Positions 35,814 through 47,002 of a DNA stretch of 64,000 bases are shown one piece after another. The translations under genes and the position numbers were made by a program. Where the stretch lies: positions 1 through 64,000 of the forward strand of contig JAQGDQ010000843.1 of assembly GCA_030141605.1 (NCBI GenBank), in the 5' to 3' direction. How positions within the stretch are numbered: position 1 is the first letter of the stretch; each line of letters starts with the position of its first letter. The notes under the pieces were generated by a model. It made no database searches. It was not told where the DNA came from and was given only the letters and a program-made list of their open reading frames with translations. This DNA is from Tubiluchus corallicola. Taxonomy: Eukaryota; Animalia; Priapulida.

Positions 35814-38800
35814 TTAGATTAAATTGAGCAGAAACAATCTGTAGTCGCCTGAAGTATCATCCTGTAACCGAGAAAAATGGGTATTACTCTAAGTATTTTT
35901 GCTCTCTCTCTCTCTCTCTCTCTCTCTCTCTCTCTCTCTCTCTCTCTCTCTCTCTCTCTCTCTCTCTCTCTCTCTCTCTCTCTCTTTCTCTCTCTCTCTT
36001 CTCTCTCTCCCTCCCTATCTCCCTATCTCTCATCTCTCTCTCTCTCATTTCTCTCTCTCTCTCTCTCTCTCTCTCTCTCTCTCTCTCTCTCTCTCTCTCT
36101 CTCTCTCTCTCTCTCTCTCTCTCTCTCTCTCTCTCTCTCTCTCTCTCTCTCTCTCTCTCTCTTCCTCTCTCTCTCTCTTTCTCTCTCCCACTGCCTCTCC
36201 CTCACCTCTCACGCTCCCCTCTCTCTGTCTTTCTCGTTCTCTCTCTCTCTCTCTCTCTCTCTCTCTCTCTCTCTCTCTCTCTCTCTCTCTCTCTCTCTCT
36301 CTCTCTCCCTCTCTCTTCCTCTCCCTCTCTCTCTCTCTCTCTTCCTCTCTCTCTCTTTCTCTCTCTCTCTCTTGTTTTTCAAGTTTAAATTGTAAAAATA
36401 AGGAAAGTCTAAGCTTAACTTACTGTCAATATTTGTAGCTAATCTTGTAACTGCTGGTAAACAAAGCCACGAAGCACAGCCTCAGTGTTGCTTAGCTTTA
36501 GTCAAAATGAATACACCGTTGGCTATTTAGATTATCGCGTTTTATTTACATAATACATCTGTACATTAGCTAGAATCTATCGTGAATATGTTAGACCAAT
36601 TCATGCAGAGCGCTCAACGAAATAGATACTGTAGAAAGGTTTGAATGTATCCGAAGGCAATGCTGACGCAAGCATGGCCACGTGAGCCCATTCTTGGAAA
36701 GAGTCTACATACCGCAATAGCTGCTCGCAAAGTCATCCCATATTTCTTTTCAAACGCTTCCCTTACGTTTACCATGTTCCATTCACAGCAGGTACAAACA
36801 ACGCGGATTAGCTGGGTGTCATTCGTGGATGGTCCATGTACGGAATCATAAAGTCGTCTGGCCCAATAACTGTATACGTCTTTCGTCATTTCAACTACAA
36901 AATTAAATTTGCATGAGTAAAAGTAACGTATGGAGTTTCCGACTTGTAACGATTGATTATGAGTTAGATATTATAATACTATGAGTATTTATGATGCTTT
37001 TTCCTAAATTTTCAATATTAACTAAAGAAAAAACATTATAAATCAAAAACTGACAACTGCAAATTGTTAATCATTACACCATAAACAATGACTTCAGTGT
37101 ATTTGGTAATTTGTGTAGCACAAAGAGCATTGTACTACATTATTTTGCACTACATATACTTTTTTCAACTTTGTAGTAGAATGAGTATCAGAATAACCTT
37201 GCTTCAAACAACACAATGAATAATTATTCTGTCATCGAACCAAGTTATATCATTAGTTTTTTTATTTGTAAAAATGGATAATAATTATATTAATACTAAA
37301 CTTATTATTATCATTAATTTTTATTTCAGTTCAACTGTCCACAAGAATTTTATTCTAATCTTAATATTTTAATAAACTGCTGTGTGAAATAAACACAACA
37401 TGTTGTTATCATGTAGAAACAAATGCTAATGAAAAACGTTAAAGTTCTGATTGATATTAAGTCTTGCTGATTTAACTAACTGAAACACGACAAACTTAAA
37501 AGTGCTCACATACGTTTAATCAATAAGACTATAGCTAATATGTTATAGTCTATGTGTCCATGGGGTTCACATATTTTTTGTCAAGGGTAATAAAATGAAG
37601 CTGTCACTAAAAATTGTCGCGCTAACATTATAGTCATGCTTCAGTGAGTTTCTCTGTGTTTGCAAATTCATTAATTCTTCTAGCAGAATGAACTTACCAT
37701 ATAAGACAAGTAAAGAACTTTTTTTTACCAAGGCCCACGCTTTTACAGCAAATATTGCAGACGATGTTTTCAATTAGTGTGACAAGAATTTTCACAATAT
37801 GCTGTAAGCCTGGCCTACTTTTGCGCAATGATTGTTTACACTCTGTTAGAATAGACTATAATAGACCTATAACTTTCAATGGCAGTAAAATACATATCAC
37901 TTTGATGAAAACATGTTAACAAGTGCAACCAGTGCAACGACAATCATTTCTACCAGCTGACTACCTATTCTAGCCAAGGTTAAATGTAGTAATAACAGCT
38001 TTATTTTTAGTTTTTTATGCATTTCCTTTTCTTAATTTCATTTACGTTTCCCTAGGTGAAAAAACTCCTTTTCTTGTGAATTGAAATTCGGAAGGATGAG
38101 CACAATCCACAAGTCATTTATTTAACTTACTCGTTACATTTAATGTGCTCAACACGTGACATTAATGTCAAAACGCTGTCTTGTCATTTCTACTTACTTA
38201 CCATATGTCAAAAGTGTTTCCTCGGCTAAGCAGGTCAGATCTGCATCTTTAATTGCGTCTTCGATTGGGCGTTTATTGTGCTCTTCCCATGCTGTGATAC
38301 ATGCGCGTATACGATCGTAGCTCCTGAAGGGAAAAAACTGACCCAGCAAAGTCGGATTCCAGTAATTCACAAAATAATCGATATCATTTTCCTCCGGATG
38401 ATCTAACCGAGGAGGCTGCAAACAAACAAGTTTTTGACACTGAAAAACGTTTCATGTAGACTTTCATCTTTTACCTACAATCAAAGTTTGCGTATACAAA
38501 CAATATGGACGGGAGAAAAACTAAAGTGGTGCAGTTAGGAGTAATTGAACTTGGCTGGGGCAGAACAGCTTTAGCACTCTCTCAGTGAAAACCCTGGAAA
38601 CCATTTTAATCACCATTTGCTTTAAGTGCAGCTACTTGGCCCACACTAAGTCGTGTACTGTTTACCTACGCAAATTTTCTAATGACTATCCTACTAGGCT
38701 AAAAAAGGACGAAACATGCAATGCATTTTACGATATTCAAGCACAAGTGCATACTAAAAAATCAAACATAACGTGAGGACATCGGCTCAACCTATAATAA

Positions 38801-41800
38801 TTATGAATCGTACGTACACCCAAGTAATACGACAGTAACGTATAAAATGGTGAAGATGATCGTACGTCGTCTTTAATACGATCTTTAAACTTGTCCTTTC
38901 CACCTAAAAAAAGGTAAATATAATGATTATTCCATGCCGGTGTCAGTTAAGTAGATAAAATGCACTAAAGCACATCTGAGAGCTGCACAATGCATTATGA
39001 TGAATAGACGGTAAATGAATTGATAAACATATTAATAGATGAATATATGAATATTAAACTCGAGAAAATTGGCTAGCACTGAAAAACTGATGGACATTTC
39101 AATGCTAATAGATCTACCACATTGAAATACCAATGCCACTCTCATCACACATCTTTGGGATTTTTCAAGGCAATATTTTTCTGGGCCACATAGGTGAATG
39201 GGATACTAATGGGATACTACAAATGATCTTAGGTCCAGACAGTCACAATGTAGATGAAGAGGAAATTGCAGACGTTGAGTGTAAATGCAAGTATTGGTAC
39301 TGACACATTTAATCCGGTAACCCACTTTTGACAACAACACAGAAGTGGTGTTTTAAATGACGAAATGATAGCATTATGACGTCATATTGACATCACACTT
39401 AAAAAATATCAGCATTTTTGAAATCCATATGTTTACTTTGCTATTAGTCAGCTTAATACACAATTTTTGTCCAGGATCTGGAATTTTTTGTGCCTGCAGG
39501 CACCATCTTCGATTTAGGCATATAATATCAAATGTACTAAGCCGATTTTTTGACCATTTTATTCACCATACCTGAAACCACATTTTAACAGAATTTGAAG
39601 AGAAAAATTCTGTTGCAATTTCTTCTAAGTACAAATTTACTAGGACTATTTTGACCTAATTATAAAACTCCTTAATAATTGATAATAATTATATATTTTG
39701 TAGTATTAAGGACCCCCTGAAAGTCTGGAAGTCATAGCAATACACGTACCTAAGACTCTGTAAACAGGCTGTAGTTCTTCAAGTGATCTTGTACCGAAGA
39801 TCTCAACCAATGCCATCTCATCCGTGGCGGGACCCTATACAAATAGACTGAGTAATGAAAAAATCCAAAGATATTTTGGCATTTAAATATCAGCCAAACA
39901 TAGGCTACACACAAAATGCATTTGACATGAAAGTTATAAGAATTAAAAGCAATATGAGTAACTTGCATGTCAAATATGATGATGATTTTGGCTTCTTGTG
40001 CGAAGAGGACGATCAGGAACTTTGATATTCTACAAAGACAATAGATTATTGGGAAAATGTAGGCCTATAATATCTCTGTTCTCAGGTCAGGCTGTCTCAA
40101 ATGTCAAGACACAGGGAATACACTCATGTCCAGGAACCAAATTGGTGAGCTAATTCTACAACTCTTCCAAAGACCCTTAGCTCCACAACAAAATTGGACT
40201 TTTGAATCTCGCTAAATGTGCTAATTTGGCTGTGTTTTGCTAGTATGGCTTACGTGTACTTGGCTGTTAAATGCATAATCTGGAACGTAAACGTACGTCA
40301 AGTGCCCATTGGAAGAACATTGCATCTCGTAACTCTGGTGCCATCAACCGGCTTTCAATGAGCATTCTCCATCTCCATTCAGTTGGTTGTTTAAAATCAT
40401 CTATTACCAAATATTTGCAATTCTGAAATGGAGGCCAATCTCATTTAGTATTTAATTCTGTAAACAAGAGTGGTTCTTTTTTATACTCAAGAAAAAGTTA
40501 ACCTACGATTTAGATTGTTCTGTGACAATTAACAAGTGAAAATGCATCACAATATATGCCTATAATGGCAACGTAGATTAGGAGCAAGAGATCTGAAAAG
40601 ACAAGAGTTTTAAAACTTACATTCTTCACAAGCTCAGGTCTGTTAACCAATTTTTAACTATAGCAAATCAAATCAAATCAAGTTTATTGTTCTCTGTAAC
40701 ATTTCAGAAATGTAAACATATAATAAAAATATAAAAACATAATTAGAGTAATAAACGCTGTTAGTAAAGTAAATCTAAAATCAGAGAGATAAGGTAGCAA
40801 ATTGACTAAAAAGTCATCAATTCAGCTACCCTTTATTGGGCAATAAATTAGGTTAATCAGGGCACTGGTAAACACGGTAGATAAGCAAAGACGTAAAGTT
40901 GTCTGTTGAGTAATTGTAGATAATTATCAATTGAATTCATAATTTTTATCTGTAAAATTTGATAAGTTTTTTATATATATTATCAAGTTATTTTTATCAA
41001 AATTAAATATCTAAGTAAAAAAATTAAAAAAGGGCAAAATTGAAGAAAATTAGCTGTTTTGAAAAGATCAGTAGTAGTAGACTTTTAGTAGAACTAGAAA
41101 CACAATAATGATAATAACATTCTACATACAACACAATTATTGTACAGCAATATAATATTACTGTGTAACGATATGATGATTGTGCTATATATATAATAAT
41201 ACAATAGTATTTGCAAAGATCTACTGTTATTATTATTATTGTTTTGGATAATAAAATAGTATTATTATCCATATTTGCAAATATAGTCAGTTATGTAATT
41301 AAATAATTATACTACAGATATATACATTTAACAAGCTTCTTAGGTGTAAATATACGTAATCAAGTTATTTGAATCGAAATTAAATATATAAGTAGAGCAT
41401 ATATTTTGTTTAGAAAAAGAATGAGAGAAGAAAATGAACGTTATTTTGAAAAGACCCGCATGATCTGTAGTAAAAACAAAATTTCATGCAATACTAATAC
41501 TAACTAGCAAAGGCCCCGCAAAACATTTTGCGTATAAATACACTTATAATCAACAATGCGCGGACATTATACCTTATCTTCATTTATAGTCAGAATTTAT
41601 ATTCAATGTCAGAACAATGACTATGTGTCAGCAGTTAAATAAGTGATAATCTTGCAAAATAAACCCCCTCTTGGTGGAGGCGTCCTAAACTGCGACTCAC
41701 ACCATCTTGTAGTATTTTACCCTCCCATAGAGTCCCGCCCAGAATTATCTCTCGCCGACAGTCCCGCCAAGTACCACTATTATGTTTTTATAGGTTGTTT

Positions 41801-46830: not shown

Positions 46831-47002
46831 CATTGTTGAGAAAACTTTCAGTAGAGCTGAAATATGGTTCTTCCTCGGTTTTCGAATTTAACGCTGCATT
46901 ATACTTTAGACTTCCTGAGGTCTTGTCTCTTGATTTACTAGTAACAAATACAAGCCATGAGGCGCAGTATAAGACGAACACAATTGCTATATTGTGAGTC
47001 AT
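46831..47002 (-). CDS. Signal-peptide/propeptide exon of a secreted S1 protease-like leader
   Basis: ATG at 47002 gives MTHNIAIVFVLYCASWLVFVTS-KSRDKTSGSLKYNAALNSKTEEEPYFSSTESFLNN, then a phase-1 donor G|GTTAGT. The N-terminus is hydrophobic and the phase matches the exon at 45017. Confidence 0.65.

What the first reader, a model, noticed from the sequence alone, without database searches (positions are those of the whole stretch)
35814..47002. Possible chimeric secreted annexin using a serine-protease pre-pro leader
Seen: two clean minus-strand exons (47002-46831, 45017-44947) splice in phase to give signal peptide, propeptide and R|IIGGEDAADGEFPFM. Reading the window by eye, I found no following S1A catalytic exons (CGG, TAAHC, DIAL, GDSGGP). 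The IIGG exon ends in a phase-0 donor, and 2.1 kb downstream annexin A opens with a phase-0 acceptor (cctaatttttgtgcag|CGC). Splicing would give one open frame ..SR-IIGG..FPFM-RGPEG..KGPGTDE... Established: annexins normally lack signal peptides, and R-IIGG is the trypsin-type zymogen cleavage site. Inference: exon shuffling may have produced a classically secreted, proteolytically processed annexin. Alternatives are a truncated protease pseudogene next to the annexin, annexins nested in a long protease intron, or interception by the acceptor-bearing segment at 44575-44710.
Basis: partly seen in the sequence, partly recalled or inferred. Interest (0 to 1): 0.85.

Follow-up and report, generated by a model that had tools for sequence, protein, structure and literature searches.

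The report
Broken protease gene beside annexin duplicate
The front end of a trypsin-type protease gene is cut off inside its third exon and lies just upstream of one of two fast-diverging annexin genes; it is most likely the remnant of a rearranged protease gene rather than the leader of a secreted annexin, although in-frame fusion transcripts could form and this is untested.

Summary
It breaks four codons before the catalytic His. Public DNA run X1 holds this broken form and a near-identical form that reads on W-V-L-T-A-A, so the leader comes from an ordinary protease gene cut mid-exon. The proposed acceptor (CAG at 42825) looks strong but probably lies inside annexin A's own first coding exon. 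An in-frame ATG sits 42 nt upstream in both tandem copies. A third copy in X1 keeps the ATG and reads GGG there. The closest relative, probably a transcript, has no leader and aligns through this region. Fusion is still possible: four in-frame routes give 388-446 aa. No RNA tests it. Verdict: probably a truncated protease beside an intact annexin (0.65); functional secreted chimera about 0.12. Signal-peptide annexins are already known from cyst nematodes. Side result: the two annexins differ more in exons than in introns.

The parts
46831..47002 (-). S1A protease exon 1: ATG, predicted signal peptide, start of pro-segment (phase 1 donor)
44947..45017 (-). S1A exon 2: end of pro-segment, R-IIGG activation site, phase 0 donor
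43406..43469 (-).
43341..43405 (-). about 65 nt that follow the break; give 7 further codons and a stop (43385-43383); no other copy in the window; first 49 nt also in a contig of run X1
42939..43340 (-). upstream region shared by annexin A and B (B: about 32690-32138); holds TATAAATA (43249), a weak ATG-GT (43310) and a donor-like TAG-GTAGAT (43197), all also in B; partly repetitive in run X1; function untested
42321..42464 (-). exact 69-bp tandem duplication of the acceptor of annexin A exon 2; use of the upstream copy (42414) gives a stop after 56 codons
35814..42345 (-). annexin A exons 2-8 (42345-42251, 40422-40297, 39834-39750, 38903-38818, 38415-38202, 36894-36713, 35861-35814), all AG/GT and in phase; 321 aa from ATG 42866
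24175..32137 (-). annexin B, tandem paralogue with the same 8-exon layout, 326 aa from ATG 32065, 73% identical to A, no protease sequence upstream
23088..23658 (-). isolated third copy of annexin exon 7 with a frame shift near its start (relic)

Best explanation
The three minus-strand exons at 47002-43406 are the 5' part of a trypsin-type (S1A) protease gene that ends inside exon 3, before the catalytic histidine, and a rearrangement, likely a deletion, left them about 0.5 kb upstream of annexin A, which likely still starts from its own first coding exon and likely makes a leaderless, cytoplasmic-type protein. Shown: the exons, the break at 43406/43405, an unbroken twin in run X1, and open reading frames for annexins A and B from their own ATGs. 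Inferred: transcripts from the protease promoter would mostly take the native exon-3 acceptor and run into the stop at 43385 (109 aa, no catalytic residue), or reach out-of-frame AGs, and would be removed by nonsense-mediated decay. Any in-frame fusion would be a by-product of the break, not the normal form of the annexin. Whether the break is an allele or a recent copy is not settled.
For: Exon 3 exists between the IIGG donor and the annexin. In run X1 two contigs match it up to 43406 and then continue with 12 letters that read W-V-L-T-A-A plus the first base of a His codon; one has 1 other letter in 55, the other 11 in 72. A third contig (43357-43460, 1 other letter) carries the window's break with 49 and 55 letters on the two sides. 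The broken and unbroken contigs both end at 43460 and overlap one upstream contig by 30 letters. The missing continuation is not in the window: one 2-mismatch hit at 59698, in unrelated context. Annexin A and B both have an in-frame ATG 42 nt above the CAG. The X1 contig laid on this exon has GGG where the CAG is; none of the 34 displayed differences falls in the 18 nt from the ATG, and 7 fall in the next 24 nt, a rate like the coding part (15 in 88) and above the flanks (6 in 72, 6 in 77). The closest relative P0004 (46% identical over A 19-321; unnamed 1185-nt contig holding a 338-aa frame, so probably a transcript) has no IIGG and aligns from 42935 on through the ATG and the CAG. That upstream match alone is modest: 25-175 of 10000 shuffles reach it, and 15 of 6726 window tiles. 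B is intact with no protease upstream. None of 150 annexin hits carries R/K-I/V-I/V-GG.
Against: The CAG site scores 8.8 against 6.9 (leave-one-out) for the exon-3 acceptor, and the alternative upstream AGs score poorly (42912: -0.1; 42938: -7.7), in a matrix of only 12 sites. Annexin A's own promoter and first exon were not located; if the break removed them, A could be expressed only from the protease promoter. The X1 annexin contig has 2 differences and 4 gap letters whose places were not displayed, so its frame is not fully verified, and it is a third version (16 of 34 differences share B's letter), not A itself.
Confidence: 0.65

Rival explanations
1. A young chimeric gene: the protease promoter now drives annexin A, splicing skips exon 3 or uses the cryptic donor at 43410, and an in-frame 388-446 aa product enters the secretory route. 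Decay of the out-of-frame forms would leave the in-frame fusion as the main stable mRNA. About half of this weight is for a product with a selected function.
For: Four in-frame routes: 44947>42824 (388 aa), 43410>42824 (408), 44947>42938 (426), 43410>42938 (446). The CAG site is in the top 1% of AGs. The leader frame is intact. The A/B shared region stops only about 65 nt from the break, so A may have lost its promoter. A's frame has stayed open despite 151 coding differences from B.
Against: It needs a native strong acceptor to be skipped or a donor to be used that the unbroken gene evidently reads through. The CAG is absent in the X1 copy. The leader is nearly identical to an unbroken protease, so its intact frame is no sign of selection on a fusion. 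The duplicated acceptor of annexin exon 2 adds a further route to a stop. The relative P0004 and paralogue B have no leader.
Confidence: 0.22
2. The adjacency of the protease fragment and annexin A is a local assembly join or haplotype switch in repetitive sequence below 43357.
For: The bridging contig in run X1 reaches only 49 letters past the break, and 43195-43311 draws many repeat contigs. No genome was held for a check.
Against: The break itself is in read-derived contigs. The sequence below 43340 is collinear with B's upstream region, and the window has no N.
Confidence: 0.08
3. The annexins sit in a very large insertion within protease exon 3, the rest of the protease lies below window position 1, and splicing from the GT at 43409 restores the enzyme.
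For: The break follows W-GTAT, so a donor-like GT is left at a codon boundary.
Against: The unbroken twin has no intron here. No continuation lies in the 43 kb below the break, and two same-strand genes with 16 exons would have to be spliced out.
Confidence: 0.05

Closest known systems
Partial and chimeric gene duplicates (review PMC3449122, passages read)
   Same: A gene fragment cut without regard to exon limits and placed next to a duplicate of another gene; the review describes a single event across two adjacent genes creating a chimeric structure.
   Different: Here no transcript shows that the two parts are joined; the downstream gene has its own in-frame start.
Notothenioid antifreeze glycoprotein from trypsinogen, and chimeric afgp/tlp genes (PMC3449122 passages; bioRxiv 10.1101/2022.06.08.494096 passages)
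   Same: A trypsin-family 5' region (first exon) was reused for a new secreted protein; chimeric intermediates exist and some are pseudogenes.
   Different: AFGP is a proven protein built from an expanded repeat; here the partner is an existing annexin, the R-IIGG exon and part of exon 3 are retained, and expression is unknown.
Heterodera Hs4F01 / Hg4F01 annexin-like effectors (PMC2791119, abstract and passages)
   Same: Four-repeat annexins with a predicted cleavable signal peptide (SignalP 3.0, after residue 21), expressed in secretory gland cells: a classically secreted annexin is not new.
   Different: The passages read mention no protease pro-segment or IIGG; those genes are shown to be expressed.
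Annexin family (Pfam PF00191); nearest sequence P0004 (unnamed Logan contig), nearest named ones 30-35% to P0004 (mollusc annexins such as Aplysia annexin-B12)
   Same: Four repeats, about 320 aa, short N-terminus, C-terminal D-T-S-G-D-Y motif.
   Different: A and B keep K-G-x-G-T only in repeat I, lack it in repeat III, have G-P-S-T in repeat IV, have Pro where aligned canonical annexins have the acidic residue of repeat I, and have Cys for the Arg of the repeat-IV S/T-R-x-E motif that all 8 aligned relatives keep.

Membership tests
S1A (trypsin-type) serine protease, active enzyme | Signal peptide, pro-segment and R/K-I/V-I/V-G-G activation site | tested here: met
   the signal peptide rests on hydropathy only, SignalP was not available
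S1A (trypsin-type) serine protease, active enzyme | C42 segment (C-G-G/A-S-L/I-I...W-V) | tested here: met
   exon 43469-43406
S1A (trypsin-type) serine protease, active enzyme | Catalytic His, Asp and Ser motifs | tested here: not met
   absent from six frames of the 64-kb window; exon 3 is cut before the His; sequence outside the window not available
Annexin | Four ~70-residue repeats (PMC3795353) | tested here: met
   Pfam on exon pieces of repeats I, II and IV; full-length alignment to P0004 and named annexins; repeat III is recognisable only by alignment
Annexin | Endonexin K-G-x-G-T motif with its acidic cap (type II calcium site); often lost in some repeats (PMC3795353) | tested here: inconclusive
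   motif exact only in repeat I, whose cap position holds Pro; repeat IV keeps the cap Asp with a changed motif (cap position from alignment and recall)
Annexin | Calcium-dependent phospholipid binding | not testable with these tools
   needs protein
Expressed chimeric gene (AFGP/trypsinogen type) | Parts of two parent genes adjacent and in the same orientation, with an in-frame splice route | tested here: met
Expressed chimeric gene (AFGP/trypsinogen type) | A transcript that joins the parts | not testable with these tools
   no usable RNA run (see Tried and rejected)
Expressed chimeric gene (AFGP/trypsinogen type) | Joining acceptor conserved among copies | tested here: inconclusive
   CAG in A and B, GGG in the X1 copy; the second in-frame AG at 42938 shows no displayed difference in X1 but scores poorly

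The most novel reading that the evidence does not exclude
A still-segregating rearrangement has put a fast-evolving, calcium-site-degenerate annexin under a digestive-protease promoter and pre-pro leader. Nonsense-mediated decay removes the out-of-frame splice forms, so the stable product is a secreted annexin released by cleavage at R-IIGG: a chimeric gene caught at birth, with its unbroken parent allele still in the population.
Probability: 0.12. Interest if true: 0.7.

Novelty: new member of a known kind. Interest (0 to 1): 0.27.

Why it matters
On the best reading it is ordinary: a broken protease copy beside a tandem annexin pair. It is still a clean example of how phase-compatible debris can look like exon shuffling. 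If the fusion were expressed, it would be a polymorphic chimeric gene with both parents at hand, and an annexin routed through the ER by a borrowed zymogen leader, a route my five literature searches did not find described. One RT-PCR would test it. The side result may deserve more attention: a lineage-restricted annexin subfamily with eroded calcium sites whose exons differ more than its introns, as expected under diversifying selection or intron homogenisation.

Tried and rejected
No whole genome is held, so intact protease paralogues and flanking sequence could not be searched. Sequencing runs: no RNA holder listed. Run X2 (RNA by guess, 13 million letters) laid only 4 repeat pieces on 42610-46100 and none on 43290-43570, which says nothing on expression. 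Run X1 had no cover at 44716-44949 or 43290-43349, and no A-like or B-like contig was displayed on annexin exon 1; holes prove nothing with this tool. None of the 15 joints displayed (of 26) joins exon ends. Contig depths at the branch (12.6 into 6.5 and 5.9) fit two alleles or two recent copies, but the tool states that depth is no copy number, so I treat this as a hint only. X1 may not be independent of the assembled sample, though it lacks the 512 nt at 43580-44091 in one contig. Word-index protein searches with annexin exon 6 and with the ATG-bearing exon found nothing (8 and 4 candidates). The ESM Atlas gave only sub-0.9 unrelated hits for exon 6. The search with P0004 found no second member of its subfamily among 53 hits. 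dN/dS of A versus B is 1.17 and not significantly above 1 (Fisher P 0.53), so positive selection is not shown. I considered 42912 as the native acceptor and dropped it: weak score, and P0004 aligns across it. I considered a collapsed 24-nt ancestral intron (donor-like GTAAGA in the X1 copy, acceptor-like CAG in A and B): attractive but untestable with three copies. No fold of the spliced annexin or fusion was obtained. Earlier scan notes showed nothing near, by words or by sequence.
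Full report
Setting. The window is an intron-rich animal sequence of about 36% GC. No genome is held. Other notes of this scan call the organism a probable priapulid; I did not test that and nothing below depends on it.

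The two leader exons are as described: 47002-46831 and 45017-44947 join to 81 open codons with a hydrophobic N-terminus and R-IIGG. Annexin A is real, with 8 AG/GT exons in phase down to the stop at 35814. A tandem paralogue B has the same layout at 32137-24175, and a lone, frame-shifted copy of exon 7 follows. The CAG at 42825 does look like an acceptor: top 1% of AGs in a small matrix trained on 12 sites of this window. The join 44947>42824 is in frame.

A third protease exon begins at 43469, 1.5 kb after the IIGG donor and 0.6 kb before the CAG. It is in phase 0 and carries the C-G-A-S-I-I-N-E-R-W-V segment typical of S1A enzymes. In the window it then runs 7 codons into unrelated sequence and stops, giving 109 aa. 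His, Asp and Ser motifs occur nowhere in six frames of the window.

The break is real and mid-exon. Six contigs of run X1 were laid on 43290-43570. Two match exon 3 up to 43406 and continue with the same 12 letters, which read W-V-L-T-A-A and the first base of a His codon. One of them differs from the window at 1 of 55 letters, the other at 11 of 72. A third contig carries the window's break, with 49 letters beyond it. The broken and the near-identical unbroken contig both overlap one upstream contig by 30 letters. So the leader belongs to a normal multi-copy protease family, and the window holds a form cut four codons before the catalytic His. This argues against annexins nested in an ordinary protease intron. 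It also means that the intact leader frame is no evidence of selection on a fusion. X1 may not be independent of the assembled sample, and the link from the break down to annexin A rests on the window.

Where annexin A normally starts. Both A and B have an in-frame ATG 42 nt above the CAG, with A at -3 and G at +4. The X1 contig laid on this exon is a third version (16 of its 34 displayed differences share B's letter) and reads GGG at the CAG. It shows no displayed difference in the 18 nt from the ATG and 7 in the following 24 nt; the coding part has 15 in 88 and the flanks about 8% (binomial P 0.002-0.03, counted after seeing the data). Two differences and 4 gap letters of that contig were not displayed. 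A profile search of 1.84 billion representatives gave 720 hits; the best 150 were examined. One, P0004, is a close relative: 46% identical over A 19-321, against at most 33% for the next ones listed. It comes from a 1185-nt unnamed contig and spans all seven intron positions, so it is probably a transcript (inference). It has no IIGG and a maximum hydropathy of 1.98 in its N-terminus. It aligns with the window's open frame from 42935 through the ATG and the CAG; the upstream part of that match is modest on its own. The simplest reading is that the exon extends to about 42938 and the CAG is a Gln codon. Whether the 24 codons above the ATG are translated (after an upstream ATG exon) or are UTR is open. 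Of the 150 hits, 0 carry R/K-I/V-I/V-GG and 8 have a hydrophobic N-terminal stretch of 2.0 or more.

The CAG outscores the exon-3 acceptor's leave-one-out value (8.8 against 6.9), and the upstream AGs score badly. The AG at 42938 is also in frame with the protease's phase-0 donors, and a cryptic donor at 43410 scores in the top 10%. Four routes thus give fusions of 388, 408, 426 or 446 aa; the other three AGs above 42824 that lie below 43000, apart from 42938 (42956, 42912, 42895), and the one at 42849 give early stops. A and B share upstream sequence only to about 43340/32690, so A may have lost its promoter. Shared candidates for an own start exist (TATAAATA, a donor-like site, a weak ATG-GT) but are unproven. 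By established knowledge, stop-containing spliced forms are decay targets, so a minor in-frame route could still dominate what survives. I put an appreciable in-frame fusion mRNA at about 0.22 and a functional secreted product at about 0.12.

The annexins. A (321 aa) and B (326 aa) are 73% identical, with dN 0.18 and dS 0.155. Both frames stay open through 151 coding differences; random placement of 75 or 151 substitutions left the frame open in 96 and 5 of 3000 trials. Exons differ at 15.7% of sites and introns at 10.2% (Fisher P 1.5e-6), but dN/dS is not significantly above 1 and intron homogenisation could give the same picture. Calcium-site motifs are eroded and the repeat-IV Arg is replaced by Cys. 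A also has a fresh 69-bp duplication of its exon-2 acceptor, one use of which gives a stop at codon 57; this may mark relaxed selection or an assembly slip.

Comparison with what is known. Signal-peptide annexins are known: Hs4F01 and Hg4F01 of cyst nematodes (PMC2791119; abstract and 12 of 15 matching passages). Reuse of a trypsinogen 5' region is known from the notothenioid antifreeze glycoprotein (PMC3449122, 12 of 17 passages), and chimeric afgp/tlp genes include pseudogenes (10.1101/2022.06.08.494096, 5 passages). Loss of endonexin motifs is common in invertebrate annexins (PMC3795353, 3 passages). Five full-text searches listed no S1A-annexin fusion and no priapulid annexin study; for the other papers I saw only the listings, and I read no supplements. 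The role of the Arg, the cap position and the decay rule are from my own knowledge.

Verdict. Real sequence features, but most likely a truncated protease beside an autonomous annexin. The fusion is not excluded and is cheap to test. Interest 0.27.

Noticed in passing
window 24175-42938: Annexins A and B differ more in exons (15.7%) than in introns (10.2%), while the 140 nt above codon 17 are nearly identical; a third version in run X1 is about equally distant from both in exon 1. Possible diversifying selection or gene conversion in a lineage-restricted annexin subfamily with eroded calcium sites.
   Followed up: partly
window 42825-42848: This 24-nt stretch ends like an acceptor in A and B and begins like a donor (GTAAGA) in the X1 copy; it may be an old phase-0 intron that collapsed and is now read as 8 codons.
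   Followed up: partly
window 42321-42464: Exact 69-bp duplication of annexin A's exon-2 acceptor; the upstream copy leads to a stop.
   Followed up: partly
window 23088-23658: Lone relic of annexin exon 7 with a frame shift, downstream of annexin B.
   Followed up: partly
window 43580-44091: 512 nt in protease intron 2 that draw many repeat contigs and are absent from one X1 contig: likely a polymorphic mobile-element insertion.
   Followed up: no
window 62641-62779 (+): Exon with a weak calponin-homology match (E 0.00063, below the Pfam cut-off), probably the start of a calponin/transgelin-like gene.
   Followed up: partly
window 33739-34083 (+): Thr/Ala-rich open frame of 114 codons between annexins A and B, no Pfam match.
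   Followed up: partly
window 7423-7695 (-): DDE_3 transposase fragment (E 2.7e-8).
   Followed up: yes
window 51591-52731; 54675-55545; 17130-17941; 57264-57685: Long minisatellites (19, 113, 20/60 and 31 bp units); the 19-bp unit resembles degenerate telomeric repeats.
   Followed up: no
protein P0018 (KAF2897866.1, Ignelater luminosus): A beetle annexin gene model with a strongly hydrophobic, signal-like N-terminus; could be another secreted annexin or a gene-model artefact.
   Followed up: no
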